The notes beneath the pieces are model-generated. The model did not search any database and was not told the DNA's origin. It saw only the letters and a list, made by a program, of their open reading frames with translations. Below, one piece after another: positions 21 to 31,573 of a stretch of DNA of 35,963 bases. Within the stretch, counting starts at the first letter, position 1. Every line of letters begins with the position of its first letter. Made by a program: the position numbers and the translations under genes. This DNA comes from Candidatus Dojkabacteria bacterium UBA5209 (GTDB lineage: Bacteria > Patescibacteriota > Dojkabacteria > SC72), in contig DHVL01000020.1 in the NCBI GenBank assembly GCA_002412645.1, forward strand, positions 1 through 35,963. Reading direction: 5' to 3'.

Positions 21-60
21 AAAAGGGGGAGAAGTACATGTCAATTGTATTCTACCCCCT
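21..60 (-). terminator. Rho-independent terminator candidate downstream of the 70..1086 gene
   Basis: On the minus strand GGGGGTAGAA (59..50) pairs with TTCTCCCCC (33..25) with one bulged T. The loop is 16 nt and the stem is followed by TTTT (24..21). Confidence 0.55.
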
Positions 61-69
61 ATAATTGCT

Positions 70-1086
70 TTAAGCTTGAGGTTCTTGGATAGGTGGTGGA
101 GTTGGTGCAGAAGCTTGGCTTTGCATCTCCATTGCCTTTTTAATTATTTGTTTTTTGTAAGACTTTACAATCAATACTATTAGTAATATCAATACTAATA
201 TTGCAGCTCCAGCTATTGCTATTTCTTTGATAGGAAGTACCCAGAATGTAAGTTCACTTGAGACATACTTGTCTGAATTCTCTCCGTAGTTAAGAGTTAG
301 TAATGCACTGTACCTACCAACTGTTAAACCATCTCTCTCCCACTGCTCTGTAAACTTTCTAGAGGACTCTGGCAGTACATTACCACCTGCTTCATTTACT
401 ACAAATTCATCAACTACTTTACCAAATATATTACTAATCTCTATCTTTCCAACAGGCTTAACATGGATATTACCAGTATTTTGAAGAGATATTTCAAAAT
501 CTACAGGAGGATATTGATACATATCACTACCTGTTTTAAATTCTGTAATAGTAGCAGACTCCGTAGTCTCTCCCGCTATTCTAACAAGCATAATGGAACC
601 AGATTTGGCACCTAGTGCTACTACATTACCACTATCTGTAGGATCAATTGGTTGATTACTTAGAAGTATTGCAGCATATCTACCACCAGGTTCTGCATCT
701 AATGGTACATTAATTGTAAAAGGTAATACTACACTCTCTAAAGGTTGAATCTCTAAATTGTTAACAGCGATTGTAACCCACTGTGCAAGAGAGTATGTTT
801 TGTTCTCTTCATCATCTTCTATGAATTCTTGTCCTCCATCTTCTCCTAATGCCTTAAATGAAAGAATCTGTGGATACAGAGTAATACTCTTTGTTTCATT
901 TAGGTTAGTGAATTTGATAAAATCACTGTATGAGCTACCTGGCTCTACTGTAATTTCTAAGACTGGAGGAGAAACTCTTAATTGTAAACCACTCTCTTGA
1001 GCACTGATATCCTTTACAAAAAACATACTTAAACCAAAGACCAAAAGAAAGGTTAAGAGTTTAGTAATAGGCAGATTGTTTTTCAT
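70..1086 (-). CDS. Tail-anchored cell-surface protein, CscA-like (DUF916/DUF3324-style architecture)
   Basis: Has an N-terminal signal peptide (LLVFGLSMFFVKDISAQ) and a beta-rich ectodomain starting LQLRVSPPVLEITVEPGSS. A second beta-sandwich-like half follows (GKIEISNIFGKVV...VLPESSRKFTEQWE...GRYSALLTL). The C-terminus is a TM helix plus a basic tail (KSYKKQ). It is a paralogue of 2220..3164. Confidence 0.6.
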   Translation of the reverse strand: MKNNLPITKLLTFLLVFGLSMFFVKDISAQESGLQLRVSPPVLEITVEPGSSYSDFIKFTNLNETKSITLYPQILSFKALGEDGGQEFIEDDEENKTYSLAQWVTIAVNNLEIQPLESVVLPFTINVPLDAEPGGRYAAILLSNQPIDPTDSGNVVALGAKSGSIMLVRIAGETTESATITEFKTGSDMYQYPPVDFEISLQNTGNIHVKPVGKIEISNIFGKVVDEFVVNEAGGNVLPESSRKFTEQWERDGLTVGRYSALLTLNYGENSDKYVSSELTFWVLPIKEIAIAGAAILVLILLIVLIVKSYKKQIIKKAMEMQSQASAPTPPPIQEPQA

Positions 1087-1108
1087 TACCTTAAAAATAA
1101 ATTTAATA

Positions 1109-2170
1109 TTAATAGTTAGCAGTCACAACTATTGTAGCAACCTGAGCATAACTACCTGCAGGTGTAGCACCAGATACTGATGCTAAATGGCACATAGTTG
1201 TCACATCGGAACTAATAGGGCCAGTAGCAGATGCAAACCGTTGAGCAGATGTACTTAATGCAGATGCTGGTTGTGAAGTACCAGTATCATTATCTGTACA
1301 AGCAGTATTTTGAACAATTGTTTGACCTGATTTAGAGGTACCAACTCCATACTCCTCAGCTCCTTTTACTACTGTACCACTAGCAGCATTAGCAATTGAG
1401 TTAACAGAATTTCTTAATTGACCATCAGCAACAATAGTTGAAAGATATCCATTCAAAGCATTCGTTGAAACTGTTACATTGTATTGACAAGTCTGTATAT
1501 ATGTAGAGGAAAGAACTCCAAGTGCACATGTATTAGAACTGATTACAACATCTAATGTAGGATCTACAGAAGCTGAGATATCAATCTGATCATCAGACAC
1601 TATCACTACAGCAGCGCTACCTGTATCACCAAATGTTCCTGTAATACCGATATCATATGTACCAGCTGATGCAGGATTGGTAATTTGGTTTATACCACCC
1701 GAAGCATGAGTACCAATTAATACTCTTACACATCTCCCTGCTGCAATCTCACCTGTTGTTGCATTTGTTGGAGCAGTTAGGGTAATTGTACCAGCACCAT
1801 TGTTAACAGCAACCCCCCAAACAGAGGCTCCTGCTGCTGATGCTAATGTTTTACTTGTAGGTGTACCTGTACAAACTCCAGTATTATATACAAGTAAATC
1901 AATATCCCCAAAAACAATATTAGTTAAACCAAAATTAGGAGAAGCAGTATTAAAACCTAATACAACTGTCTGAGATGCACTATTTACACCCGTAGGTGTT
2001 ACAAATTCAATTGTATGATTTGCAGCAACACCCTGCTGTATTCTACTTAATGTATCAGATATACCACTTAAAAATCCTGCGTTTGCATCTTTAGTGAAAT
2101 ATGTAATACCAATTGCAAATACAAAAATGCCTAGTAATATTGTAGGTAAAAAGAAAAATTTGTTTCTCAT
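1109..2170 (-). CDS. Secreted Thr/Ser/Gly/Ala-rich beta-rich protein (putative surface or fibre subunit)
   Basis: Signal peptide ends ...YFTKDANA. The protein has no other TM segment and a low-complexity, beta-prone composition. The C-terminal strand is AGSYAQVATIVVTANY. The central stretch VSTNALNGYLSTIV parallels SSGAAHGYVVTVY in 3146..3910. Confidence 0.5.
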   Translation of the reverse strand: MRNKFFFLPTILLGIFVFAIGITYFTKDANAGFLSGISDTLSRIQQGVAANHTIEFVTPTGVNSASQTVVLGFNTASPNFGLTNIVFGDIDLLVYNTGVCTGTPTSKTLASAAGASVWGVAVNNGAGTITLTAPTNATTGEIAAGRCVRVLIGTHASGGINQITNPASAGTYDIGITGTFGDTGSAAVVIVSDDQIDISASVDPTLDVVISSNTCALGVLSSTYIQTCQYNVTVSTNALNGYLSTIVADGQLRNSVNSIANAASGTVVKGAEEYGVGTSKSGQTIVQNTACTDNDTGTSQPASALSTSAQRFASATGPISSDVTTMCHLASVSGATPAGSYAQVATIVVTANY

Positions 2171-2219
2171 ATGTGTTTAATAATAAATATATCTATTTTA
2201 ATTTACCGATATAAGATTT

Positions 2220-3164
2220 CTAAGTCAAGCTTTTAGGCTTCTTTCTTAACAAAAAGATTATAAAAATTAAACATATTAATATGAGAGTACCCAAGAGATA
2301 AATATTGATATATACAAAGTAGAAAGGATTACTACTAGTTAGCACTTGGGCATTAACATCTTCAAAATACATATCATATATATCTACCTGTGCTTTGTAT
2401 ACACCAAAAATAGACTCACTCTCCCAAGATATTAGGCTATCACCAGTATAGAAACCGTATTCATCCATAATTACACGAGAGGACTGAGCGAGAATATTTT
2501 GTGGTACTAATTCTCTAAAATACTCTTTTTGAGTAATAATGTTTTTAATTTCTACTTTACCAAAGGATTTAATCTTTCTAAAACCAGTATTCTCAATCTC
2601 TAGTTTAAATTTAATAGGATTAAACATATTGAAACGATTACCACTAAACTCCTTAACTTGAGCTTGCATCTGAGGAAGAGCTCCATCCATTACAGAAATA
2701 AGCAGGGGTATTTCTATTGCACCAGATACTGCGGCTCCCCTCTGCTCTTCACTTGCTTTCTCTAGTGCAACAGTAAGGTAGTAATCTCCTAAACTTACAT
2801 CTTCGGGAATATCTACCACTATCTTCACTTTCTTTTCTGTATCTAGTTCAAAAGAGAACTCGTTAGGTTCAAAAGATATCCAATCTAGAGCAATCTCATC
2901 ATCCATGGAGGATGCAAATCTACCATACTCATCTAATATGTTTAGACCATATACCTTAAGTGTATATGGTTGACCTCCTGTTCCCCTTAGTACTATCTGA
3001 TGCTCTATTCTTTCTCCTGGTTTACTCTCTATTTCTAATATCGCAGGAAATATCTGGAAATCAATCGTATTAGCATATACCCCTCCCTTACTAAGAGTAA
3101 GTATTAAGAGTAGTACTAGTATCTGTAATATATATTTTTTCATATTTAAAATGTTCCTGTACAT
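2220..3164 (-). CDS. Tail-anchored cell-surface protein, CscA-like paralogue
   Basis: Has a signal peptide and an ectodomain starting FQIFPAILEIESKPGERIEHQIVL. A second half follows (GKVEIKNIITQKEY...ILAQSSRVIMDEY...GVYKAQVDI). The C-terminus is a TM helix plus RKKPKSLT. The layout matches 70..1086. Confidence 0.6.
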   Translation of the reverse strand: MYRNILNMKKYILQILVLLLILTLSKGGVYANTIDFQIFPAILEIESKPGERIEHQIVLRGTGGQPYTLKVYGLNILDEYGRFASSMDDEIALDWISFEPNEFSFELDTEKKVKIVVDIPEDVSLGDYYLTVALEKASEEQRGAAVSGAIEIPLLISVMDGALPQMQAQVKEFSGNRFNMFNPIKFKLEIENTGFRKIKSFGKVEIKNIITQKEYFRELVPQNILAQSSRVIMDEYGFYTGDSLISWESESIFGVYKAQVDIYDMYFEDVNAQVLTSSNPFYFVYINIYLLGTLILICLIFIIFLLRKKPKSLT

Positions 3165-3910
3165 CTAAAAACAATACCGTTACCGTAGTAACCGGAGTCT
3201 TGCATAGAACCAATATTAACTTTGTAATACAATCTTGCAGAAGAGCTACGAGTAACACCACTGTTTTGCATAATAGGTTGAGGATCTTCACCATTAGACA
3301 TATCTGCAAACTGCTTATACCCACTTGTAAAAGTTGCATCTGTACCTACTAGATTACTCATCCTATATCCAAATCCATATGTAGTACTTAATTCCCACAT
3401 ACCTGCTTGAGAGTATGTAATATCACTATTATCCCCAACTGTATCCTCTATATACTGCCCAGGAGTATCAAGATTCTCTAACTTCTTAGTCTCATATACA
3501 GTCACTACATACCCATGAGCAGCACCAGAGCTTACCACTAGGTCTGTATATGCCATTTGAGGAACATTGTTTACCAGTGAGCTGAAATTAAAACTAATAG
3601 GTGAATCTATCGTAAAACTAAAGGGTATTAAACTGTAGTAATATCCAAAACCAGCTAATATTTTGTAATTTTCAGAAGTATATACATCTGTGCCTAACTG
3701 TCCTCCTGTATCTACCATATAGAAGGATTCAGAAGAGGATGTATCTGCAAAGTTGTTTACAGTTCCCCATCCTAACTTAGCACTTTCACTAATAGCTTCA
3801 AATGAGTATGTACTGTTAGATGAGAGTAATACCAAAAGAAAAGAGATTAGAAATATTGGTAGTAGATACATATTTTTAAAGACTTTTGAGCTTTGAATAC
3901 CATTAATCAT
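3146..3910 (-). CDS. Secreted beta-rich protein (putative surface subunit)
   Basis: Has a signal peptide (LLVLLSSNSTYS) and an aromatic/Gly/Ser/Thr-rich sequence. It contains one W-x-L tripeptide (MWELSTTYGFGY) and ends YYGNGIVFRCTGTF. It overlaps the next gene by 19 nt. An alternative start at Met14 is possible. Confidence 0.5.
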   Translation of the reverse strand: MINGIQSSKVFKNMYLLPIFLISFLLVLLSSNSTYSFEAISESAKLGWGTVNNFADTSSSESFYMVDTGGQLGTDVYTSENYKILAGFGYYYSLIPFSFTIDSPISFNFSSLVNNVPQMAYTDLVVSSGAAHGYVVTVYETKKLENLDTPGQYIEDTVGDNSDITYSQAGMWELSTTYGFGYRMSNLVGTDATFTSGYKQFADMSNGEDPQPIMQNSGVTRSSSARLYYKVNIGSMQDSGYYGNGIVFRCTGTF

Positions 3911-3991
3911 ATCTACAGTTTATCACAACTATCTCTCACCAATATATTTAAATATGTTAAACTAAAATATTAATATCTTTTTTGAATAAAT

Positions 3992-4168
3992 ATGAGCAGA
4001 ACAAAAGATGCATCAAGCAATGCCGTATATGGATTAGGATTCATAGGAGCTGCAATATATTACATATCAACTGCTACTACATTCTGGATTGGAGTAGTTG
4101 GTTTACTTAAAGCAATGGTATGGCCAGCATTCTTAGTATATGAACTCTTGAAATATCTAGTAGGTTAA
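3992..4168 (+). CDS. Small (58 aa) two-TM membrane protein, not in the supplied ORF track
   Basis: My own translation is MSRTKDASSNAVYGLGFIGAAIYYISTATTFWIGVVGLLKAMVWPAFLVYELLKYLVG*. It has two hydrophobic helices. The YGLGFIGA...FW.G..G.LKA.VWPAFLVY pattern resembles a small conserved bacterial membrane-protein family, recalled from memory only. Confidence 0.45.
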   Translation: MSRTKDASSNAVYGLGFIGAAIYYISTATTFWIGVVGLLKAMVWPAFLVYELLKYLVG

Positions 4169-4274: not shown

Positions 4275-4670
4275 ATGAAAAGAACAGTAATAATAGTAGT
4301 AATATCTATAATAGTAATACCAGTAGTAATACTAATATCACAAATACTACCAGCAAAAAGTGATGGACAACTTTACACCCCAATACAACAACCAGAGGTA
4401 CAAGAAGAAAGAGAGTACGAAACTAAAACAATACACATCTCTATAATAGGATACGCATACTCACCATCACAAGTAATCATAAACAAAGGTGATAGGGTGG
4501 TATGGACTAATCAAGATAGTGTAAGGCATGATGTAAATGGTGATGGTATAGAAGGCCCATTACTTTCAAAAGGAGAAACATTCAGCTATACATTCACAGA
4601 AGCAGGTACATACAACTATATATGTACACCACATCCATACATGAAAGGTTTAATCATTGTAGTTGAGTAG
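4275..4670 (+). CDS. Membrane-anchored type-1 blue copper protein, amicyanin-like cupredoxin
   Basis: Has an N-terminal TM anchor. An upstream His ligand candidate sits in DSVRHDV. The C-terminal ligand loop GTYNYICTPHPYMKGLIIVVE has Cys-x2-His-x2-Met spacing, as in amicyanin (CTPHPFM). Confidence 0.8.
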   Translation: MKRTVIIVVISIIVIPVVILISQILPAKSDGQLYTPIQQPEVQEEREYETKTIHISIIGYAYSPSQVIINKGDRVVWTNQDSVRHDVNGDGIEGPLLSKGETFSYTFTEAGTYNYICTPHPYMKGLIIVVE

Positions 4671-5521: not shown

Positions 5522-6025
5522 ATGAGAATATTCTCAAACGATAACGATAAATACTCTGGAAGAAGAAAAAGTAGATTCGATAATGATAATAGGGGAAGAT
5601 CAAATAGATCTGACAGAGGTTCTGTGACAATGTATGACGCAGTTTGCGATGAATGTGGCAAAGACTGTAAAGTACCATTTAGACCAAGTGGAGAGAAACC
5701 AATATATTGTAGTAGCTGTTTTGAAAAACAGGGTAATGGTATACCTAGGGGAAATAACAGAGATTCAAGAGATTTCCAAAATAAAGAGATGTTCAGTGCA
5801 GTATGTGATGATTGTGGTAATGATTGTAAAGTACCTTTTAGACCAAGTAATGATAAACCAATATATTGTAGTAGCTGTTTTGAAAAGAGAGGAAACTCTC
5901 ATGAGGGTGGAAGTGGTCCTAAGAGTAATCTTCAACTAGAGGAAGTAAATGAGAAACTAGATAGGATCTTAAAGCTTTTAGAGAGTAAACCTGTAAAGAA
6001 AGTTGAAGAAGTAATAGAAGAATAG
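5522..6025 (+). CDS. Tandem CxxC-x17-CxxC zinc-finger protein with Arg/Ser/Asn-rich N-terminus
   Basis: CDECGKDCKVPFRPSGEKPIYCSSCF and CDDCGNDCKVPFRPSNDKPIYCSSCF each have exactly CxxC-17-CxxC spacing. The two copies are 159 nt apart, starting at 5630 and 5789. The N-terminal RRKSRFDNDNRGRSNRSDRG looks like a nucleic-acid-binding tail. Confidence 0.8.
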   Translation: MRIFSNDNDKYSGRRKSRFDNDNRGRSNRSDRGSVTMYDAVCDECGKDCKVPFRPSGEKPIYCSSCFEKQGNGIPRGNNRDSRDFQNKEMFSAVCDDCGNDCKVPFRPSNDKPIYCSSCFEKRGNSHEGGSGPKSNLQLEEVNEKLDRILKLLESKPVKKVEEVIEE

Positions 6026-10309: not shown

Positions 10310-13300
10310 ATGAATAAAAAGAAAGAAAATTTCTTGGTTTTAAAAATTGAGAGAAAAAAAATATTAAAATCTTTAGGAATAGTTCTCTTCGCGTTTTTCT
10401 TCTTTGGATATTTTGTTCTTGCCCAAAAAGATACAACACCTATTGCATATGCTGCTTGTAACTTAACATATTGTAAACAGCAGCCAAATGGTGCCTGTAC
10501 TGGTCCAAATGGATGCTTAGGAGATTGTCCTTGTGGAGGTAATCTCTACTGCTATTCGGGGTTTATATGTTGTGATAGGGGCCCTTGTATAAGCTGTGCG
10601 CCCCCCTCATGTGATGCTAATTATTCAGAAACATCAACCAGCTGTGGGTCATATAACGAAACATGTACAAAAAGGGATTGTCCAGGAGATGCTTGTGGTA
10701 CTAATACAAGAACCTGCTTCCTTGTTACCAAAACTGTTACATACAGTGCTAATGGGGGTAGTTGTAGTGTAGGTAGCCGTACTGTTTGTTACAATACCAC
10801 CTCTGCTTCTCCTGGCTGTACTAGAACAGGATACACATTAACTTCATATACACGTACATACCTAGAGTCAGGAGGAGGGGGAACCTTAAATACTTCTACA
10901 GGTGCCGTAACTAATGTTACTGGTCATCAAACAATACAGGCTAACTGGGCAATAAATACATATACAGTCTCATATCCTGGAAATGGAGGTACATGCGACC
11001 CAACATCTCGCGTAGTAAACTATGGCTCCGCTGCTGCTGCACCATCATGTACAAGAACGGGATATCATACAACAAGTTTTTCCATTACTAGTGGAGCTTG
11101 TGCTGGTACCTTCACTGCATCTACAGGAGCATGCAGTAGTGTTACACAAGCAATAACCATACAGCCTAACTGGGAATTAAGTAATCAAATACCAACTGCT
11201 CCAACAAATCTAAGAGTAGAAAATGCTGAAAATCCAGTAGGTATAACAGATACTACTCCAGAGTTTAAGGCTGAATTTCAAGACCCTGACATTGGAAATA
11301 CAGGTGTTTACTACCAAATACAAGTAAATACAAACTCTTCCTTTACTGGAACTACCATGTGGGACAGTGGTCAAACATCAATGCCTGCAACAGCGATAGG
11401 GGCATATAATAATCCTGACATAACATACGGTGCTACACCCCTTGCTCTAGATGGAGCTACCTACTACTGGAGGATTAGGTTTACAGACAACAATGGTGGT
11501 GTGGGAGCCTGGTCTGCTACTGCGAACTTTAAGATGAACAGTACACCTGGGCAACCATCAGGACTACAAGCAGAAGGAGCAAGCAACCCAATTGGCGTCA
11601 CAAATACAACACCCGAGTTTAGTGCAATTTTTAATGACTCAGATACAGGAGATACAGCCACTTACTATGAAATAGAGGTAAATACCAATTCCTCATTTAC
11701 TGGAACTGTAATGTGGGACAGTGGACAAACATCAATGACTGCTCTTGCAATTGGCTCTAGATCACCGGAGATCTCATATGCTGGAACAGCTTTAAGCTTA
11801 GATGGTACCACATACTACTGGAGAATTAGATTTACAGATAACAGAGGGACTGTAGGAGCTTGGTCTGCTACTGCTAACTTCACTATGAATACTCCGCCAT
11901 CAGCACCAACATCTCTACTTACTGAAGGAGTAAGTAATCCAACCAGAGTCATAGACACATATCCAGAATTTAGTGCAATATTTAATGACCCTAACGGAAG
12001 TGATACAGCAACAAAATATGATTTAGATGTAAATACCAATTCCTCCTTTACGGGAACAATGGTATGGAGTGCAAGTGATATACCAATGAGTGCAGTTTCC
12101 AATGGTGCTAGAACAGCAGATATCTCATATGCAGGTTCTACCCTTTCTTTAAATGGTACTACCTACTACTGGAGAATTAGATTTACTGACAATTACGGAA
12201 CTAAGGGAGTATGGTCTTCTACTGCTAATTTTAGAATGAATACACCTCCTAATGTACCAGGTTCGCTACAAACAGATGGGCAGATTAACCCAACGGGAAT
12301 TACCGATACAACTCCAATATTTAGTGCTCTACATACAGATCCAGATACAGATAGTGCAACACACTACCAAATACAAGTAAATACAAACTCTTCATTTACA
12401 GGGACTGTAATGTGGGAGAGTAACCAAACAGCAATGAGTACTACTGCGAACAACAGTAGAACTCCAGATATTACCTACAACGGTACTTCCCTTACCTTAG
12501 ACGGCTCTACCTACTACTGGAGAATGAGAGTATGGGACAGTAGTGGTACAGCAAGTGGATGGTCTGATACTGCTAACTTCCAAATGAATACAACTCCAGA
12601 TCAACCATATCAACTTCAAACAAACGGGTTAGAGGACCCTACTGCTTTACAAGATTTAACACCTGAATTTAGTGCAATATTTAATGATTCAGATATTTCT
12701 GATACAGCTACACATTACGAAGTAGAGGTTAATATAAATAATACATTTAGCGGAACTGTGATGTGGGATAGTAATAAGACGATATTTACTACTCCAGTAG
12801 TAAATGGAGGTAGAAGTGAACAGATACTGTACCAAGGAATACCATTAGAACAAAATGGTCAAACATTCTACTGGAGAATTAGATTGTGGGATTCAAATGA
12901 CACTCCAAGTGCATGGTCTCCTACTGCATCCTTTAGAATGTTAGATATTCCAGGAGCTGCTACAAATTTAACAGCAGTAGCTCTCTCTACCACATCAATA
13001 AGGTGGGAATTTGAGGATAATGCAACAGGAGAAGAGGGAGTAATGCTGTATGATGAAACAGATACTTTACAAAAAATCTGCATTGGTGAAAACCTTACCT
13101 TCTGTGTAGAAGAAAATCTAGATGAAAATACACAATATACAAGATATGCAGTTATTTACAACAGTGAAGCAGAAAGCCAACCATCTAATAGTGACAGTAT
13201 ATATACATTAATATCTACTCCTACACTACTTTTCTCTGGAGTAAAAACTGATACCTCAATTGGACTACTAAGTTCACAACCAGCAAACTCAGGAGAGCTT

Positions 13301-16300
13301 TACTTTGACTGTGTAGAAGGATGTGGAGACAATATTAATGTATGGACTTTAGACAATAATCCAACAGTTACTGCCTTACAAAACAACACCCCATATACCT
13401 TTAGAGTAAAAGCTAGAAATGGAGACAACGTAGAAAGTGCATACTCAGGCTCAACAATGATATATACCCAAACTCCAGTACCAACTCTTTCTGCAGGAGC
13501 TCTCTCTACTACATCAATCTCTCTTACTGCTTTGGGAGTAAACAATCTTTCTACAGGAGACTCTGGACTTTACTTTGAATGTACAGGTACAAGTTGTAAT
13601 AGTGGTATACAAGAATGGATTAAATCTACATCAGATGCAGTGATAGGTCTACAACCAAATACACAGTATACATTTAGAGTAAAAGCTAGAAACTTTGATG
13701 CTCAAGAAAGTGCTTACTCAACGGAGATAACAAAATATACACTAGCAGAGATACCATCACTTACCGATGTACACGCTACAAGCAGTACACAAATTTCTCT
13801 TAGAATATTAAGCGGCCTTAATCCATCTAATACAGAATTTTTAGTACAGGAAACAGTGACAGGTAAATACGTAAACCTAACAACAGGAGAACTACAACCT
13901 ACAGAAGATTGGCAATTAAATGGTACTCCCATTACAATCTCAGGACTTAATTCTGGTACCACATATACTTTCAAAGTAAAAGCTAGAAATGGAGAAAATA
14001 TTGAAAGTGACTTCTCCTCTTCTGCTTCTGCAACAACACTACTTTCATCAATTACAGCACTTACACCACAAGTAGATTCTAGTTCCCAAATTACTTGGAA
14101 GATATCTAGTCCTCAAGACAGTATCCTTGGAATTAAACTGTATGACAATGATGGGACTTTACTTAAAACATGTGTAGGAAGTGATATAACGGAGTGTACA
14201 GAGTCCTCTCTTTCTCCAAACACAACATATACAAGAAAATTTAGGGTATACAACAGTATTGCAGAGAGTGAATTTAGTAACAGTGTACCAGCAACTACAT
14301 TTGCTAATGTACCTGCTTTTGAAAGTATCTCTACTCAAGATTACACATCTGAGAGTGTTCTTTTGAAAGTAGATGTCAATGGTAATCCCTCTAATACTAC
14401 ATATTTAATTGTAGAAGAGAATACTAATAGATATTTCAATTCTGATATTGGGATATTACAAAATGATCCATACTACTCTACATATACTCAATTGGAAGAA
14501 AGTGAAGGAGCAACTGTGTACGGTCTCTCTCCAAACTCTGTTTACAGTTTTAAGATTAAGGCATTAAATTCTGATTCGGTAGAAAGTGCATACAGCTCGG
14601 CATTAGGATTTACTACTTTAGCAGCACAGCCAAGTGTAGTTTCTGTAAATGCAGTAGATAGTAGTAGCGTAAAAGTACTAATTAGTAATGGAGAGAACCA
14701 CTCTCTTACACAGTTTAGTCTAATTGAAACAAAGAGTAATCTTAATGTAAATAGTGGGACTAAGGTACTTGATACCAATGTACAATGGAAGCCATATCAA
14801 GACTTCGGTGGTAGTAGCGGTATAATACTTTCTAATCTACAACCTAATACACAATACTCATTCTGTGTAAAAGCAAGAAATTCTGAAAATATTGAAACAG
14901 GTTGTTCACAAGTAGTTTCTGCATATACATATGCTAAGAGTGCTTCACTAAGTACAAGAGTGGTTAACTCCTCAAGTATTGAAGTAAATGTAAACAAGAA
15001 TGGCAATCCTACAAATACTAGATATCAAATAATGGATACATTAACTAATGGGAATATTGATAACGATGGGAAATTTACAAGTAGTACAGTTTTACACAGT
15101 GACAGTAGAGTAAGTAGTAATTTCTTAATTACAAACTTACCTCCTAATACTACCTACTCCTTTAAGATTAGATCTGTTAACAGCGATACTTTGTATTCTG
15201 GATGGTCAGAGAATATCACAGTCACAACATGGGCAAATTCACCAAAAGACTTAGTTTTTGAAATAGTGGGAGGAAGTAGTGCAAGACTTAAGTTTGATAG
15301 GAATGGGAACCCATCTTCTACTAGATATGCAATACAAGAAAGTAATACTGGAAAATATGTAGACTACACAACCTCAAAATTGGTAGATAATGTGGTATGG
15401 GGTACATATACCTCTTGGGGTAATACTAATGGATTACTTATAACTTCACTTGATCCTGGGGCTCAATATCTATTTAGAATAAAGGCAATAAACAGTGCAA
15501 ATGTTGAAACAAACTTTGTAGAGGGTAATACAGGTAAAACATATTCGATAATATTGAATAAACCAGAGAGTATTAATACTGTATTAGCAGATAACACAAT
15601 TGTTGATGTAAGTAATATAGATGGAGCACAAACAGGAGAACAGAATATAAGAATCCTACAGGATGAATATATTGTTGCTGACATACCAATCTCTTTTGAA
15701 CAGAATAGAGATTGGAGTAATGTAATAATAGAGACTTCAATATTAGAAGGAAAAACTGTCATCAAATTAGATGATTCCCATGGTCTTACTGATAGCTTTA
15801 CAATGTATGTTGTAAAGAATGAAAAAGATAATAGCTTTAGAATATGCCCTCAAGCAAAGAGCTTGGAAGAAGTAAGTCCTACCTGTCCTCAAGGAGTCCT
15901 GTATACAGGAACTTTCCCAAAGAAATTAAAAGTTGAAAAAGAAGATGTGACAGTCTCACAAGCAGCAATCTCTGGAGTGACATACTGGATTGCGGATGGT
16001 ATTACAGGTACTGGGGGACAGGGAGAATATATTGAAGAGAGGAAACTAATTCCTACAACTAATTTTGTATCTCGTATTACTCAGTCTGTAGAAGGAGTTG
16101 TGACAACAGCCATGGACAGACTAGAAAATACAGCTTTAGGGAATATACCACAAGAGAATTTAACTACTGTTTCTGCAACAGCAACAGCAGTAACAGTTAC
16201 TGTTGGTTTAGCATCCCTACTCTCAGGTATGAGCCAAGTAGGATACGGTATCTCCCAGGTTGTTATCAATATTTTTAGTACTCTTGGTTTTAGAAGAAAG

Positions 16301-17068
16301 AGACATAGTGCGGGATATATATATGATTCAATTACAAGAGCACCAATACAGCAGGCAATAGTTAGAATATATGATCTTTCAAAGAAATTAATAGATACAA
16401 GTGTGACAGATGGATATGGATACTTTAGAACATCTGTACCTTCTGGAGAGTATATTTTGGATATTAAGAAAAGAGATTATACATTCCCATCATCTCTAAT
16501 ACTTGGCAAAGAGGATTACCCATTAACAGATATATATCATGGTGAAAAGATTTATATTAAAGAGGGAGATACGAATATTGTAGTACCTCTCGACCCAGAG
16601 ACAGATATTTCTACAAAGAGAATAGTTACAATATTTAGAAGTCTCTTTTCTTCTCTACTTCCAATATTAAACATTGTACTTTTTGTAGGAGGAGCATTAG
16701 TAGCTTTGTATGTATATCAGAAAGATAGTAATTTAGTAAATCTCTTAATCTTACTTCTTTACATACCTACTACATATCTTGTACTAAAAAATATCTTCAA
16801 CCTTAGGGAGAGATATGGGAAGGTAGAATATACAGATGGTAAACCAGCAGTAAACATCACTCTACATCTTAAAGAGAAAGACTTTGACAAGGTTGTAGCA
16901 AAAAGAGTTACAGATAGTAAGGGTAGATACTCTTTTGATATTTTGGAGAAGGGTGAATATGTAATAGAGAGTGCAGATACAGGGATAAAGATTGTAGATG
17001 GAGAAGTACAAATTCTTGCAAAGAAAAAAGAAAGTGTATATAATAGGCTTATAGTAGAGAAAGTATAG
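10310..17068 (+). CDS. Giant (2252 aa) multidomain surface/adhesin-like protein
   Basis: Uninterrupted ORF with an N-terminal signal anchor. A ~90-aa region holds more than 20 Cys. Two Listeria-Bacteroides-repeat-like units follow (TVTYSANGG...RTGYTL...IQANW and YTVSYPGNGG...RTGYHT...IQPNW). Then come five ~117-aa tandem repeats, about nine FN3-like domains (Y-[ST]-F-[RK]-[VI]-K-A-[RL]-N...ES.[YF]S), and a C-terminal TM/CarboxypepD_reg-like module. Confidence 0.9.
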   Translation: MNKKKENFLVLKIERKKILKSLGIVLFAFFFFGYFVLAQKDTTPIAYAACNLTYCKQQPNGACTGPNGCLGDCPCGGNLYCYSGFICCDRGPCISCAPPSCDANYSETSTSCGSYNETCTKRDCPGDACGTNTRTCFLVTKTVTYSANGGSCSVGSRTVCYNTTSASPGCTRTGYTLTSYTRTYLESGGGGTLNTSTGAVTNVTGHQTIQANWAINTYTVSYPGNGGTCDPTSRVVNYGSAAAAPSCTRTGYHTTSFSITSGACAGTFTASTGACSSVTQAITIQPNWELSNQIPTAPTNLRVENAENPVGITDTTPEFKAEFQDPDIGNTGVYYQIQVNTNSSFTGTTMWDSGQTSMPATAIGAYNNPDITYGATPLALDGATYYWRIRFTDNNGGVGAWSATANFKMNSTPGQPSGLQAEGASNPIGVTNTTPEFSAIFNDSDTGDTATYYEIEVNTNSSFTGTVMWDSGQTSMTALAIGSRSPEISYAGTALSLDGTTYYWRIRFTDNRGTVGAWSATANFTMNTPPSAPTSLLTEGVSNPTRVIDTYPEFSAIFNDPNGSDTATKYDLDVNTNSSFTGTMVWSASDIPMSAVSNGARTADISYAGSTLSLNGTTYYWRIRFTDNYGTKGVWSSTANFRMNTPPNVPGSLQTDGQINPTGITDTTPIFSALHTDPDTDSATHYQIQVNTNSSFTGTVMWESNQTAMSTTANNSRTPDITYNGTSLTLDGSTYYWRMRVWDSSGTASGWSDTANFQMNTTPDQPYQLQTNGLEDPTALQDLTPEFSAIFNDSDISDTATHYEVEVNINNTFSGTVMWDSNKTIFTTPVVNGGRSEQILYQGIPLEQNGQTFYWRIRLWDSNDTPSAWSPTASFRMLDIPGAATNLTAVALSTTSIRWEFEDNATGEEGVMLYDETDTLQKICIGENLTFCVEENLDENTQYTRYAVIYNSEAESQPSNSDSIYTLISTPTLLFSGVKTDTSIGLLSSQPANSGELYFDCVEGCGDNINVWTLDNNPTVTALQNNTPYTFRVKARNGDNVESAYSGSTMIYTQTPVPTLSAGALSTTSISLTALGVNNLSTGDSGLYFECTGTSCNSGIQEWIKSTSDAVIGLQPNTQYTFRVKARNFDAQESAYSTEITKYTLAEIPSLTDVHATSSTQISLRILSGLNPSNTEFLVQETVTGKYVNLTTGELQPTEDWQLNGTPITISGLNSGTTYTFKVKARNGENIESDFSSSASATTLLSSITALTPQVDSSSQITWKISSPQDSILGIKLYDNDGTLLKTCVGSDITECTESSLSPNTTYTRKFRVYNSIAESEFSNSVPATTFANVPAFESISTQDYTSESVLLKVDVNGNPSNTTYLIVEENTNRYFNSDIGILQNDPYYSTYTQLEESEGATVYGLSPNSVYSFKIKALNSDSVESAYSSALGFTTLAAQPSVVSVNAVDSSSVKVLISNGENHSLTQFSLIETKSNLNVNSGTKVLDTNVQWKPYQDFGGSSGIILSNLQPNTQYSFCVKARNSENIETGCSQVVSAYTYAKSASLSTRVVNSSSIEVNVNKNGNPTNTRYQIMDTLTNGNIDNDGKFTSSTVLHSDSRVSSNFLITNLPPNTTYSFKIRSVNSDTLYSGWSENITVTTWANSPKDLVFEIVGGSSARLKFDRNGNPSSTRYAIQESNTGKYVDYTTSKLVDNVVWGTYTSWGNTNGLLITSLDPGAQYLFRIKAINSANVETNFVEGNTGKTYSIILNKPESINTVLADNTIVDVSNIDGAQTGEQNIRILQDEYIVADIPISFEQNRDWSNVIIETSILEGKTVIKLDDSHGLTDSFTMYVVKNEKDNSFRICPQAKSLEEVSPTCPQGVLYTGTFPKKLKVEKEDVTVSQAAISGVTYWIADGITGTGGQGEYIEERKLIPTTNFVSRITQSVEGVVTTAMDRLENTALGNIPQENLTTVSATATAVTVTVGLASLLSGMSQVGYGISQVVINIFSTLGFRRKRHSAGYIYDSITRAPIQQAIVRIYDLSKKLIDTSVTDGYGYFRTSVPSGEYILDIKKRDYTFPSSLILGKEDYPLTDIYHGEKIYIKEGDTNIVVPLDPETDISTKRIVTIFRSLFSSLLPILNIVLFVGGALVALYVYQKDSNLVNLLILLLYIPTTYLVLKNIFNLRERYGKVEYTDGKPAVNITLHLKEKDFDKVVAKRVTDSKGRYSFDILEKGEYVIESADTGIKIVDGEVQILAKKKESVYNRLIVEKV
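11192..12940 (+). repeat. Five in-frame tandem repeats, period about 351 nt (~117 aa), inside the giant CDS
   Basis: The recurrent block is NP.G[IV]TDTTPEFSAIFND.D..DTAT.Y.[IV].VNTNSSFTGTVMWDSGQTSM...G.R.P.I.Y.G..L.LDG.TYYWRIRF.DN.G..GAWS.TANF.MNT.P. The YYWR codons recur near 11465, 11815, 12166, 12515 and 12870. Nucleotide identity is high enough that spurious antisense ORFs end in the same ...LLSVNLILQ. Confidence 0.9.
12941..15540 (+). repeat. Array of about nine divergent FN3-like domains inside the giant CDS
   Basis: The signatures are YTRYAVIYNSEAESQPS, YTFRVKARNGDNVESAYS, YTFRVKARNFDAQESAYS, YTFKVKARNGENIESDFS, YTRKFRVYNSIAESEFS, YSFKIKALNSDSVESAYS, YSFCVKARNSENIETGCS, YSFKIRSVNSDTLYSGWS and YLFRIKAINSANVETNF. 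They recur at spacings of roughly 90-100 aa. Confidence 0.8.
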
Positions 17069-30946: not shown

Positions 30947-31573
30947 TTAAACAGCCCCCTTTCTTGTAAGAACTACCCACGGAGTTTTCAAAAGTATATA
31001 TATATCATTAAGTATACATGGATTAAGAGCATATTGGCTCTCCATTTGTAATCTCTTTCTAAAATGGATCTCATTTCTACCAGATACCTGCCATATACCA
31101 GTTAATCCAGGCTTAACAGTAAAGATATCATTAAAATATCTCTCATCAGTAGGATACTGCTCTAAATGATGCTTAATCTCTTCCTTGTAGTAAGGCCTAG
31201 GACCAACCATACTCATATGACCAAGAATTACATTAATTAACTGAGGAAGCTCATCTAAATCAGTACTACGAAGTATTTTACCAATCCTAGTCACACGAAC
31301 ATCCCCCTTAATCTTGTGATTACCAAGTAAACTCTCCTTTATTTCACCATTACCCATTGCAATCTCATGAGCATTAGGAACCATTGTACGAAATTTGTAC
31401 ATAAAGAAAGACTTACCATCTAACCCATACCTAACAGGAGTACCAACAAACACCTCTCCACCATCAGAAAGCTTAATTACAAGTGCGATAGTCAACATTA
31501 ATGGAGAAGTAATTACCCAAAGAAGAATAGAAAGTAATAAATCAAAAAATCTTTTAACTATTCTGTATAACAT
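30947..31573 (-). CDS. Small monotopic polyprenyl-phosphate sugar-phosphate transferase (bacterial sugar transferase family)
   Basis: Has KRFFDLLLSILLWVITSPLMLTIALVIKL (re-entrant helix), YKFRTM and DELPQLINVILGHMSMVGPRP. Confidence 0.88.
   Translation of the reverse strand: MLYRIVKRFFDLLLSILLWVITSPLMLTIALVIKLSDGGEVFVGTPVRYGLDGKSFFMYKFRTMVPNAHEIAMGNGEIKESLLGNHKIKGDVRVTRIGKILRSTDLDELPQLINVILGHMSMVGPRPYYKEEIKHHLEQYPTDERYFNDIFTVKPGLTGIWQVSGRNEIHFRKRLQMESQYALNPCILNDIYILLKTPWVVLTRKGAV

What the first reader, a model, noticed from the sequence alone, without database searches (positions are those of the whole stretch)
70..3910. Four-gene secreted/tail-anchored cluster resembling a Csc/WxL-type cell-surface complex in a non-Firmicute-looking genome
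Four co-directional genes have gaps of 22, 49 and -19 nt and are closed by a terminator at 21..60. They alternate between two protein types. Type 1 (338 aa and 314 aa) has a signal peptide, two beta-sandwich-like halves and a C-terminal TM helix with a basic tail. That is the architecture of DUF916/DUF3324 (CscA) proteins of Gram-positive WxL loci. Type 2 (353 aa and 254 aa) is a secreted, Thr/Ser/Gly-rich, beta-prone protein. The two type-2 proteins share a central ...N/G-[AG]-x-x-G-Y-[LV]-x-T-[IV]... stretch and a terminal G-[SY]-Y...T-x-[YF] strand. This strand recalls the last strand of WxL domains or pilin-type subunits, but canonical WxL motifs are absent. No sortase, LPXTG protein, usher or pilus ATPase is adjacent. 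This may be an undescribed surface-fibre or adhesion complex, and it is the most coherent unknown-function operon in the window.
Basis: partly seen in the sequence, partly recalled or inferred. Interest (0 to 1): 0.7.

Follow-up and report, generated by a model that had tools for sequence, protein, structure and literature searches.

The report
Pam-type pilus operon in Dojkabacteria
The four genes are a compact version of the recently described "Pam" pilus system of ultrasmall CPR bacteria (two fibre subunits plus two membrane-tethered chaperones), and its chaperones prove to be relatives of the WxL-interacting proteins of Gram-positive bacteria, a link not made in any paper I could search.

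Summary
Four co-directional minus-strand genes (254, 314, 353 and 338 aa) alternate secreted beta-rich proteins with signal-peptide/C-terminal-TM proteins, and a hairpin plus U-tract at 21-60 closes the cluster. The window is from a Candidatus Dojkabacteria (CPR) MAG.

The cluster is no longer undescribed. The 353-aa protein's family matches NCBIfam CPR_Pam_pilin_C (104/109 members), and the 254-aa protein's family matches PamT. The two share a C-terminal domain (hhalign 98.6%). The 338/314-aa proteins fold as two beta-sandwiches plus a TM helix. Their closest solved structures are E. faecium WxLIP, then chaperone-usher chaperones. In Saccharimonadia, members of this family sit between curated Pam pilins and PamR. 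The most likely function is an usher-less donor-strand-exchange pilus.

A pilin-domain/WxL link is only suggestive: the score exceeds all controls, but probability is about 10%.

The operon lacks the PamR anchor, and its own proteins score below the curated cutoffs. It is best filed as a new, streamlined member of a known kind. The novel angle is a Pam-WxLIP evolutionary link.

The parts
3146..3910 (-). T2b: small secreted pilin-like subunit (254 aa; 241 aa if it starts at 3871). It is PamT-like and is the candidate tip or initiator subunit. Residues ~96-254 form the Pam-type C-terminal acceptor domain, which ends in ...CTGTF.
   Evidence: ORF. The family has 22 relatives, of which 21/23 hit NF058581 and 18/23 hit NF058579 PamT, best E 1.1e-17. 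Family member P0256 matches PamT profile 4-127 and Pam_pilin_C 2-148. hhalign to the T2a C-domain gives 98.6-99.2%. The T2a-CTD HMM hits it at 5e-13. The window protein itself has no NCBIfam or Pfam hit.
2220..3164 (-). T1b: membrane-tethered WxLIP/PapD-like chaperone paralogue (314 aa; more likely 307 aa from the ATG at 3143). It has a signal peptide, two beta-sandwich domains and a C-terminal TM (aa 280-310) with an RKKPK tail.
   Evidence: BLASTP to T1a gives E 2e-9. The T1 HMM hits at 8e-34 and the Firmicute WxLIP HMM at 4e-4. Orthologues sit in the same position in L001 and L003.
1109..2170 (-). T2a: major two-domain Pam-type pilin (353 aa). The signal peptide has probable cleavage at ANA|G after aa 31. 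It has 6 Cys.
   Evidence: NF058581 CPR_Pam_pilin_C hits at E 6.7e-10, 39.2 bits (cutoff 55), aa 211-353 covering profile 2-148/148. 104/109 relatives hit that model, best 3.3e-43. The AF2 model has pLDDT 93.7. The family has 5,860 cluster representatives at E<=1e-3.
1598..2077 (-). T2a N-terminal beta-sandwich domain (aa ~32-191).
   Evidence: AF2 strands span 35-191. The domain HMM also hits a 754-aa neighbour in L016 and is reiterated in a 3077-aa protein.
1556..1597 (-). T2a inter-domain linker (aa ~192-205, DDQIDISASVDPT). It is the candidate donor strand.
   Evidence: The AF2 monomer assigns it no secondary structure, and the 191-200 block has pLDDT 85. DQIDISASVDPT is among the four most conserved 12-residue windows of the family. 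In PamA/PamB the linker strand is the donated strand (preprint). The donor role here is inferred.
1112..1555 (-). T2a C-terminal Pam-type acceptor domain (aa ~206-353), ending in ...VTANY.
   Evidence: All 109 family members end in the same alignment column on F or Y.
70..1086 (-). T1a: membrane-tethered WxLIP/PapD-like chaperone (338 aa). The signal peptide has an ISA|Q site. Domain 1 is aa ~36-143. A lower-confidence loop at 144-160 is followed by the conserved strand GSIMLVRI (163-170). Domain 2 is aa ~178-283. The TM helix spans 286-~315, followed by a basic, Pro-rich tail.
   Evidence: AF2 pLDDT is 92.1. Foldseek puts WxLIP 9i1y/9i25 on top (E 9e-12), then CfaA, CsuC, DraB, Caf1M, FimC and EcpB (E 1e-8 to 4e-7, TMt 0.5-0.56). 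The family profile hits EfmWxLIP1 at E 1.2e-6. hhalign to the WxLIP alignment gives 99.1%. It scores 169 bits against the gene between the Pam pilin and PamR in Saccharimonadia locus L020.
21..60 (-). Terminator-like hairpin (GGGGG...CCCCC) followed by UUUU, 9 nt after the T1a stop.
   Evidence: Sequence. The fold is -21.1 kcal/mol, z -2.2. The consensus scanner did not call it. The next gene on the contig begins about 57 nt beyond the window edge.
3911..3991 (-). AT-rich intergenic stretch that must hold the operon's promoter. This is inferred. It is bounded by a divergent 58-aa ORF at 3992-4168 (+).
   Evidence: No convincing sigma-70 consensus match was found here.

Best explanation
The cluster is a streamlined Pam-type pilus operon of a Candidatus Dojkabacteria (CPR/Patescibacteria) bacterium.

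All four products are exported by Sec. T2a is the polymerising subunit. [quoted passage not shown] The groove of that domain is filled by the linker strand of the next subunit (donor-strand exchange). T2b is a PamT-like small subunit carrying the same acceptor domain, and it probably caps or nucleates the distal end.

T1a and T1b are two anciently diverged two-domain chaperones of the WxLIP/PapD type. They stay tethered to the outer face of the cytoplasmic membrane by a C-terminal TM helix. They transiently complement the acceptor groove of newly exported subunits. The likely complementing element is the loop and strand at aa ~144-170. They then hand the subunits to the growing fibre base, so no usher, sortase or ATPase is needed.

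No PamR-like anchor is present, so the fibre is probably held to the cell by its last subunit remaining bound to a tethered chaperone.

Shown here: gene content, topology, folds, homologies and conserved synteny. Inferred: polymerisation, the donor-strand identity, chaperone-pilin pairing, tip position and anchoring.
For: Pilins:
- T2a hits NF058581 over the whole profile, E 6.7e-10.
- 104/109 relatives hit that model, best 3.3e-43.
- For the T2b family, 21/23 hit NF058581 and 18/23 hit PamT.
- T2a and T2b share the C-domain at 98.6-99.2% probability.
- The AF2 two-domain model has pLDDT 93.7.
- The linker is among the most conserved stretches, and the C-terminal aromatic residue is fixed in 109/109 and 22/23 family members.
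- T2a has 6 Cys, and the preprint reports three Cys pairs in PamB.

Chaperones:
- The AF2 model has pLDDT 92.1.
- Foldseek returns WxLIP and then many chaperone-usher chaperones.
- The TM helix and basic tail are present, as described for PamC/PamD.

Direct link to the type system:
- In Saccharimonadia loci L020/L022 the T1a-class gene lies between a pilin scoring 159-163 bits on NF058581 (cutoff 55) and a PamR homologue (E 1e-50).
- A second T1 gene and a small pilin lie alongside. The window's T1a scores 169 bits against that gene.

Synteny:
- The T2b-T1b-T2a-T1a order is kept at 74% and 38% identity.
- T1-pilin adjacency is found in all CPR loci sampled.
- A tail-fibre-like neighbour, as reported for pam operons, lies just beyond the window edge (preprint).

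The filament structure and the donor-strand mechanism were solved for PamA/PamB by cryo-EM (preprint).
Against: - The window's own proteins fall below NCBIfam's curated cutoffs. T2a scores 39.2 bits against a cutoff of 55, and T2b and both T1 proteins have no hit.
- No PamR-like terminator or anchor and no distinct PamE were found in the window, on its contig, or in the other non-Saccharimonadia loci.
- Only one major pilin is present, against PamA plus PamB in the type system.
- The chaperone role of PamC/PamD is itself only an AlphaFold-based proposal in the preprint.
- I could not compare directly with the M. amalyticus sequences or with the PamA/PamB structures. They are absent from the PDB copy.
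- I could not run multimer predictions.
- No expression or imaging data exist for this organism.
Confidence: 0.78

Rival explanations
1. A WxL-cluster-like, non-polymerising surface display complex. The membrane-anchored WxLIP-like T1 proteins bind T2 proteins one-to-one by strand insertion and hold them permanently at the cell surface as adhesins, as proposed for WxLIP-WxL in enterococci and lactobacilli. No fibre is formed.
For: T1 is a full-length homologue of Firmicute WxLIP. The cluster composition parallels the typical WxL cluster, which has a small domain-only protein, a larger protein with N-terminal domains, and a TM-anchored WxLIP (PMC10599100). No PamR anchor is present. The T2 C-domain versus WxL domain comparison scores above all controls.
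Against: The T2 C-domains match the Pam pilin model, whose members were seen polymerised by cryo-EM (preprint). T2a has the Pam two-domain architecture with a highly conserved inter-domain linker. There are no W-x-L motifs and no significant WxL homology. There is no LPXTG partner.
Confidence: 0.15
2. A cell-surface enzyme or substrate-capture complex, as in the original proposal for csc clusters as carbohydrate-utilisation complexes, or an envelope/S-layer-like coat unrelated to pili.
For: The neighbourhood is rich in giant Ig/fn3 surface proteins and glycosyltransferases. The T2a N-domain also occurs as a module in very large surface proteins.
Against: No catalytic or carbohydrate-binding domain was detected in any of the four proteins. 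The homology to structurally solved pilins and to pilus chaperones is specific.
Confidence: 0.04
3. Four unrelated secreted or membrane proteins that happen to be adjacent. There is no functional unit.
For: None beyond the lack of direct experimental data.
Against: The order is conserved at 74% and 38% identity. T1-pilin adjacency is found in 7 CPR and 3 Saccharimonadia loci. The spacing is tight and a single terminator-like hairpin closes the cluster.
Confidence: 0.01

Closest known systems
Pam pilus system of Candidatus Mycosynbacter amalyticus (Saccharimonadia). Source: bioRxiv 10.64898/2026.03.03.709456. NCBIfam models: NF058578 PamR, NF058579 PamT, NF058581 Pam_pilin_C.
   Same: It is Sec-exported. 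The pilins have an N-terminal beta-sandwich, a linker and a C-terminal incomplete Ig-like domain. A PamT-like small subunit is present. There are two two-domain chaperones with a C-terminal TM helix. There is no usher, sortase or ATPase. The host is a CPR bacterium and a tail-fibre-like gene is a neighbour. The same chaperone family sits inside Saccharimonadia operons that carry curated Pam pilins and PamR.
   Different: It has four genes only: one major pilin instead of PamA, PamB and PamE, and no PamR anchor or terminator. There are no ATP-synthase neighbours in the 36-kb window. The host is Dojkabacteria, a lineage the preprint does not mention. The sequences are divergent enough to fall below NCBIfam cutoffs.
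WxL / Csc cell-surface clusters of Bacillota (CscA = WxLIP = DUF916 + DUF3324 + TM helix). Sources: PMC10599100 and PDB 9i1y/9i25.
   Same: The T1 proteins are homologues of WxLIP over both domains and share its signal peptide and TM architecture. The partner genes are a small and a larger secreted beta-rich protein encoded next to it. WxLIP is predicted to complete the partner's beta-sandwich by strand insertion, which is the logic of donor-strand complementation.
   Different: The partners lack W-x-L motifs. The equivalent positions read G-Y-x-V and I-x-[YF]-x-[CA]. They give no significant WxL hit. They end exactly on an aromatic residue, whereas WxL proteins have variable tails. The conserved WxLIP N-terminal NQIDKxxxYFDLK segment is absent from T1, where the hhalign shows an 11-column gap. 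There is no LPXTG CscD protein. There are two WxLIP-like genes instead of one. The host is not a Firmicute.
Classical and archaic chaperone-usher pili (Pap, Fim, Caf1, Csu, CFA/I).
   Same: The chaperone has the same two-domain fold (Foldseek E 1e-8 to 4e-7, TMt 0.5-0.56 to CfaA, CsuC, DraB, Caf1M, FimC, EcpB). The acceptor is an incomplete Ig-like domain, with donor-strand logic. The pilin C-terminus is strictly conserved.
   Different: There is no outer membrane and no usher. The chaperones are membrane-anchored, not soluble. The pilins have two domains, and the donor is thought to be an internal linker rather than an N-terminal extension. There is no sequence-level relationship.
TasA / archaeal bundling pili and archaeal threads (usher-less donor-strand fibres).
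   Same: These are extracellular fibres assembled by strand complementation without an usher in organisms lacking an outer membrane.
   Different: Neither pilin family has a TasA/camelysin (Peptidase_M73) hit. Those systems have no WxLIP/PapD-like chaperone. This comparison rests on my general knowledge of those systems, not on a structural test here.

Membership tests
Pam pilus system (CPR) | Pilin carrying the C-terminal Pam pilin domain (NF058581), at the level of homology. | tested here: met
   T2a aa 211-353 covers profile 2-148/148 at E 6.7e-10. 104/109 T2a relatives and 21/23 T2b relatives hit the model. The T2b C-domain is homologous to the T2a C-domain.
Pam pilus system (CPR) | The window's own proteins reach NCBIfam's curated score cutoffs. 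| tested here: not met
   T2a scores 39.2 bits against a cutoff of 55. PamT scores 19.9 against 240. T2b has no hit. So current pipelines would not name these proteins, and all four are 'hypothetical protein' in the sources.
Pam pilus system (CPR) | Two-domain pilin: N-terminal beta-sandwich, single linker strand, C-terminal incomplete Ig-like domain. | tested here: met
   The AF2 model has pLDDT 93.7. The N-terminal domain has strands 35-191, residues 192-205 have no secondary structure, and the C-terminal domain has strands 206-351. The linker is highly conserved.
Pam pilus system (CPR) | PamT-like single-domain subunit that accepts but does not donate a strand. | tested here: inconclusive
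   18/23 T2b relatives hit the PamT model (best 1.1e-17), and P0256 matches both halves of it. The window protein itself gives no hit.
Pam pilus system (CPR) | PapD/FimC-like two-domain chaperones with a C-terminal TM helix (PamC/PamD). | tested here: met
   See the AF2 model, the Foldseek hits to chaperone-usher chaperones and the TM segments. The same family lies between a curated Pam pilin and PamR in Saccharimonadia. Direct comparison with M. amalyticus PamC/PamD was not possible.
Pam pilus system (CPR) | RbmA-like, TM-anchored PamR terminator/anchor in the operon. | tested here: not met
   An HMM built from three Saccharimonadia PamR homologues finds nothing at E<=1 in the window, its contig extension L005, or L001, L003 and L016-L019.
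Pam pilus system (CPR) | Subunits polymerise into a filament by donor-strand exchange. | not testable with these tools
   This needs multimer prediction or cryo-EM. It is known only for PamA/PamB (preprint).
WxL / Csc cluster (Bacillota) | WxLIP protein: DUF916 (PGBD) + DUF3324 (HBD) + TM helix. | tested here: met
   hhalign A1 versus A5 gives 99.1%, E 5e-19, over 298 columns. Domain 1 alone gives 97.7% and domain 2 alone 39.8%. The PDB profile hit to EfmWxLIP1 is E 1.2e-6. WxLIP is the top Foldseek hit. 68/120 relatives hit PF06030. The window's T1a and T1b themselves have no Pfam hit.
WxL / Csc cluster (Bacillota) | At least two adjacent WxL-domain proteins with the dual Trp-x-Leu motif. | tested here: not met
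   There is no Pfam WxL hit in T2a, T2b or their families. A WxL HMM hits no CPR pilin. hhalign probability is 3-12%. The motif positions read Y-x-V/T and [YF]-x-[CA].
WxL / Csc cluster (Bacillota) | Conserved NQIDKxxxYFDLK segment at the start of the PGBD. | tested here: not met
   In the hhalign the T1 family has an 11-column gap opposite this segment.
WxL / Csc cluster (Bacillota) | Small LPXTG-anchored CscD protein, and a sortase in the genome. | tested here: not met
   There is no LPXTG protein or sortase among the window ORFs. Both are present in the Firmicute loci fetched for comparison.
Chaperone-usher pili | PapD-like periplasmic chaperone fold. | tested here: met
   Foldseek gives E 1e-8 to 4e-7 and TMt 0.5-0.56 to CfaA, CsuC, DraB, Caf1M, FimC, EcpB and CupB2. 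This holds at fold level only.
Chaperone-usher pili | Outer-membrane usher and fimbrial-family pilins. | tested here: not met
   There are no usher or Fimbrial Pfam hits in the window or in the pilin families.
TasA/camelysin fibres | Peptidase_M73/TasA-type subunit. | tested here: not met
   Neither the four proteins nor the 132 family members give such a hit.

The most novel reading that the evidence does not exclude
The Pam pili of CPR bacteria and the WxL/Csc surface clusters of Bacillota are two branches of one ancient, usher-less, membrane-tethered-chaperone system of bacteria lacking an outer membrane. On this reading WxLIP (DUF916/DUF3324) is the counterpart of PamC/PamD, and the WxL domain is the counterpart of the Pam pilin C-terminal acceptor domain, with the two W-x-L motifs corresponding to G-Y-x-V and I-x-[YF]-x-[CA].

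This would mean three things. Pam is not CPR-exclusive in origin. WxLIP acts as a donor-strand chaperone. WxL proteins might themselves be able to form strand-exchanged oligomers.

The chaperone half is essentially shown here. The pilin/WxL half is only suggestive: hhalign scores 24-25 and P about 0.003, against 11.8-14.3 for ten unrelated beta-domain controls and 28 for a genuinely homologous divergent domain pair, with three motif blocks colinear end to end. The papers on the two systems do not cite each other's system, and no paper in the searchable library links them.
Probability: 0.5. Interest if true: 0.75.

Novelty: new member of a known kind. Interest (0 to 1): 0.5.

Why it matters
CPR bacteria are thought to live attached to host cells, and the Pam fibre is the only non-type-IV pilus known in them. 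This locus has three implications.

First, the system extends well beyond the two classes emphasised so far. Relatives were named from Dojkabacteria, CPR3, Woykebacteria, Uhrbacteria, Andersenbacteria, Paceibacterota, Nomurabacteria and Gracilibacteria. About 5,900 50%-identity clusters match the pilin profile.

Second, a four-gene core (cap, pilin and two tethered chaperones, with no PamR) may be sufficient. That would be a convenient minimal system for reconstitution.

Third, the chaperones are homologues of the WxL-interacting proteins of enterococci, listeriae and lactobacilli. This offers a mechanistic hypothesis, donor-strand chaperoning, for a virulence- and colonisation-associated Firmicute surface system whose mode of action is still debated. 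It also questions the claim that Pam machinery is unique to CPR.

Current annotation pipelines leave all four genes as 'hypothetical protein'.

Tried and rejected
- Single-sequence Pfam and PDB searches on the four proteins gave nothing useful.
- Foldseek with the full-length T2a model returned only generic tandem-Ig hits (integrin calf domains, PrgB, MSCRAMMs; TM <0.3). No PamA/PamB or WxL chain appeared. The model could not be cropped to single domains, and PamA/PamB are not in this PDB copy.
- Profiles of the T2a and T2b families against PDB sequences gave nothing.
I replaced it with neighbourhood look-ups around individual homologues and one scan seeded with a Saccharibacteria homologue. 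That scan reached Saccharimonadia but not M. amalyticus itself.
- The consensus terminator and promoter scan found neither the terminator nor a convincing promoter.
- The PamR HMM search was negative outside Saccharimonadia.
- For the T2 C-domain versus WxL domain I tried whole-protein, domain-trimmed, global, relaxed-MAC and merged profiles. None reached significance, so I do not claim homology.
- I rejected TasA/camelysin, fimbrial, sortase-pilus and LPXTG readings for lack of any hit.
- I rejected the idea that the 99% T1-WxLIP probability comes only from the signal peptide and TM helix, because domain 1 alone gives 97.7%.
- Whether Dojkabacteria T1b is orthologous to the second Saccharimonadia chaperone could not be resolved.

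Full report
**1. Observation**

The window carries four consecutive minus-strand ORFs: 3146-3910 (254 aa, 'T2b'), 2220-3164 (314 aa, 'T1b'), 1109-2170 (353 aa, 'T2a') and 70-1086 (338 aa, 'T1a'). The spacings are -19, 49 and 22 nt.

The NCBI gene calls on the source contig (GCA_002347525.1, DDWU01000044.1) start T1b at the ATG at 3143. This gives 307 aa, beginning 2 nt after the T2b stop. They start T2b at 3871, giving 241 aa. The overlap is therefore uncertain.

Nine nucleotides after the T1a stop, a GGGGG...CCCCC hairpin is followed by UUUU at 60-21. The consensus scanner missed it because the stem is bulged.

Hydropathy shows an N-terminal signal-like segment in all four proteins. Only T1a and T1b have a C-terminal TM segment with a basic tail.

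**2. Source organism**

The nearest relatives of all the proteins searched are from Candidatus Dojkabacteria (72-74% identity). On a 724-kb contig they carry locus tags ACOX0X_00625, _00630 and _00640. More distant relatives come from many other CPR/Patescibacteria lineages. All four window proteins are 'hypothetical protein' in every source.

**3. Type 2 proteins are Pam-type pilins**

Pfam finds nothing for either protein. NCBIfam matches T2a residues 211-353 to the whole CPR_Pam_pilin_C model (NF058581) at E 6.7e-10 and 39.2 bits, below the curated 55 bits.

- At family level, 104 of 109 T2a relatives hit this model (best 3.3e-43), and 72 hit PamT.
- Of 23 T2b-family sequences, 21 hit Pam_pilin_C and 18 hit PamT, best 1.1e-17.
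- One T2b relative, P0256, matches the N-terminal half of PamT and the whole pilin C-domain.

T2a and T2b are not similar by BLASTP. Their family profiles nevertheless align over the C-terminal ~145 residues at 98.6-99.2% probability.

AlphaFold2 with the family alignment gives a confident two-domain model of T2a: pLDDT 93.7, strands 35-191 and 206-351, joined by a segment without secondary structure. That linker, DQIDISASVDPT, is among the four most conserved stretches. All 109 family members end in the same column on Phe or Tyr. T2a has six cysteines.

These features correspond to the cryo-EM description of PamA/PamB in bioRxiv 10.64898/2026.03.03.709456. That description includes a nine-strand N-terminal sandwich, a linker strand donated to the open C-terminal Ig-like domain of the neighbour, conserved linker and groove, and paired cysteines.

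The family is large. It has 5,860 cluster representatives at E<=1e-3 and 924 at E<=1e-30. Nearly all are 330-390 aa and match end to end.

**4. Type 1 proteins are membrane-tethered WxLIP/PapD-type chaperones**

T1a and T1b are paralogues (E 2e-9). The T1a model (pLDDT 92.1) has two beta-sandwich domains, a lower-confidence loop at ~144-160, and a long C-terminal helix.

- Foldseek against the PDB puts the E. faecium WxLIP structures first: 9i1y, and 9i25 'bound to long WxL', E 9e-12.
- Next comes a long run of chaperone-usher chaperones: CfaA, CsuC, DraB, Caf1M, FimC, EcpB and CupB2, at E 1e-8 to 4e-7 and TMt 0.5-0.56.
- The T1 family profile finds EfmWxLIP1 as its only significant PDB sequence hit, E 1.2e-6.
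- 68 of 120 relatives hit PF06030, the former DUF916, now named 'WxLIP_PGBD'.

I fetched nine plasmid-borne WxL loci from Enterococcus, Lactiplantibacillus, Lactococcus and Vagococcus and aligned their WxLIPs.

- The CPR profile aligns with this alignment at 99.1% probability, E 5e-19, over 298 columns.
- Domain 1 alone gives 97.7% (E 2e-12), and domain 2 alone gives 39.8%.
- An HMM built only from CPR sequences hits 8 of 9 Firmicute WxLIPs (E 4e-5 to 3e-18), and the reverse search also gives hits.

This holds even though the window's own proteins give no Pfam hit.

**5. Link to the type Pam system**

The preprint describes PamC and PamD as FimC/PapD-like chaperones with a C-terminal TM helix. 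I could not obtain their sequences. I did reach three Saccharimonadia loci through a Saccharibacteria T1 homologue.

In L020 and L022, a T1a-class gene (E 1e-102 to 1e-105 to my T1 HMM) lies between two genes:
- a pilin scoring 159-163 bits on NF058581, well above the cutoff;
- a PamR homologue (NF058578, E 1e-50 and 2.5e-48).

A second T1 gene and a small pilin lie next to these.

The window's T1a scores 169 bits against that Saccharimonadia gene, but only 44 bits against its own paralogue T1b. The two chaperone classes therefore diverged long ago. NCBIfam apparently has no model that recognises these chaperones.

**6. Conservation of the cluster**

| Locus | Gene order |
|---|---|
| L001 (Dojkabacteria relative) | T2b-T1b-T2a-T1a |
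| L003 (38%-identity relative) | T2b-T1b-T2a-T2a-T1a |
| L016 | small pilin-T2a-T1 |
| L017 | T2b-T2a-T2a-T1, with another T1 nearby |
| L018 | T1-T2b-like |
| L019 (Gracilibacteria) | small pilin-T1 |

Nothing else in the 36-kb window belongs to these families.

No PamR-like gene was found outside Saccharimonadia.

The gene just beyond the window's left edge is an N-terminally anchored 1041-aa protein. It is 73% identical over 536 residues to a Gp34_trimer/Peptidase_S74 'tail-fibre-like' protein at the same position in L001. The preprint names such a gene as a conserved pam neighbour.

The rest of the window is housekeeping plus large Ig/fn3 surface proteins and glycosyltransferases. No ATP synthase, sortase, usher or pilus ATPase is present.

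**7. Mechanism**

The best-supported reading is an usher-less donor-strand-exchange fibre.

- T2a polymerises through its linker strand.
- T2b, which is PamT-like, caps or nucleates the fibre.
- T1a and T1b hold newly exported subunits at the membrane surface by complementing the acceptor groove.

The lower-confidence loop and conserved strand of T1a (aa ~144-170) align with the WxLIP hairpin. AlphaFold predicts that this hairpin becomes a strand completing the WxL sandwich. I infer it is the complementing element.

The invariant C-terminal aromatic residue of the pilins recalls the carboxylate anchoring of chaperone-usher subunits. This point rests on established knowledge of PapD/FimC, and applying it here is an inference.

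Without PamR, anchoring is unexplained. I suggest retention of the basal subunit by a tethered chaperone. None of these steps was tested here.

**8. Is the pilin C-domain a WxL domain?**

Whole-protein and domain-trimmed profile comparisons are not significant: probability 3-12%, P 0.0025-0.03. Three observations still point towards a relationship.

- The relaxed alignment is colinear from first to last strand, with three motif blocks in register. These are 'sFtIdS..s.dF' with 'L.Idyasn..Fg'; 'LtVtsG.aahGY.Vta' with 'VqVtD.RG...GW.Ltv'; and 'YKvNIg..Q.aG.Y.n.I.y.c' with 'L.VPg.....a..YttTi.WnL'.
- The score of 23-25 exceeds 60 of 60 column shuffles in each of two tests (null maxima 21.8 and 13.3), reversed profiles (<=15.5), and ten unrelated beta-domain pairs (11.8-14.3).
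- It approaches the 28.0 of the genuinely homologous T1 domain 2 / WxLIP domain 2 pair.

Two further points apply. The partner proteins are firmly homologous. The cluster architecture is parallel: a small domain-only protein, a larger protein with N-terminal domains, and a TM-anchored partner. Together these make common ancestry of the whole system plausible (about 50%) but unproven.

Neither the Pam preprint nor the WxLIP paper mentions the other system. No paper in the searchable library links them.

**9. Verdict**

The finding is real and coherent, and it now has an explanation. It is a streamlined, divergent member of the Pam pilus system in Dojkabacteria.

It is not a categorically new system.

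Three things remain of interest: the minimal four-gene composition without PamR, the much wider distribution than published, and the demonstrated homology of the Pam-type chaperones to Firmicute WxLIP.

Noticed in passing
just beyond window position 1 (L005:11144-14269, + in L005): A 1041-aa, N-terminally membrane-anchored protein lies immediately downstream of the operon. It is 73% identical over 536 aa to a 1371-aa Gp34_trimer + Peptidase_S74 'tail-fibre-like' protein at the same position in a related Dojkabacteria genome. The C-terminal halves differ. The Pam preprint lists such a gene as a conserved pam neighbour.
   Followed up: partly
window 10310-17068 (+); also L001:1-2882 and L003:1-3611: A giant 2252-aa surface protein (5 Ig_Rha78A_N stretches, 3 fn3, CarboxypepD_reg) lies about 6 kb from the operon. 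Giant DUF2341-containing proteins lie near the orthologous operons in two other CPR genomes, suggesting a conserved surface-protein neighbourhood.
   Followed up: no
protein P0286; L016:8171-10435: The pilin's N-terminal domain is a mobile module. It is matched in nine separate stretches in a 3077-aa protein. It also occurs in a 754-aa fn3-containing protein encoded right after the chaperone gene in L016. A few 1,100-aa proteins carry a complete pilin at their C-terminus.
   Followed up: no
window 3992-4168 (+) and 4275-4670 (+): A 58-aa hydrophobic small ORF (called as a gene on the source contig) and a 131-aa membrane-anchored cupredoxin/plastocyanin-like protein lie divergent from the operon. 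A copper protein is unusual in a CPR genome, since such genomes are thought to lack respiratory chains.
   Followed up: no
window 5522-6025 (+): A 167-aa protein contains two near-identical CxxC...CxxC zinc-ribbon modules (DxCGxDCKVPFRPSxxKPIYCSSCFEK), with a Pfam zf_Tbcl_2 hit in the precomputed annotation. Its function is unknown.
   Followed up: no
window 30947-33852 (-) and 28179-30257 (-): A Bac_transf sugar transferase and two GT4 glycosyltransferases lie next to a 692-aa Big_1/CarboxypepD_reg surface protein. This is a possible surface-glycosylation cluster. PamA carries a post-translational modification on a serine, so pilin glycosylation by these enzymes is conceivable but untested.
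   Followed up: no
plasmid CP069367.1 (hit H1): The best plasmid match to the EfmWxLIP1 fragment (52% identity) is on a record labelled Klebsiella pneumoniae, with no annotated feature under it. This is an odd host for a Firmicute WxL locus. It may be a mislabelled or contaminant record, or a transfer.
   Followed up: no
protein P0022: A T1 homologue (40% identity, 385 aa) is deposited as 'Candidatus Nanoarchaeia archaeon'. This is either mis-binning of a CPR contig or a Pam-type gene in a DPANN archaeon.
   Followed up: no
L018:8861-10474: In a Paceibacterota locus, the gene after the T2b-like pilin encodes a 537-aa protein that weakly hits the Firmicute WxLIP HMM (6e-4) but not the CPR T1 HMM. 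It may be a third, divergent chaperone class.
   Followed up: no
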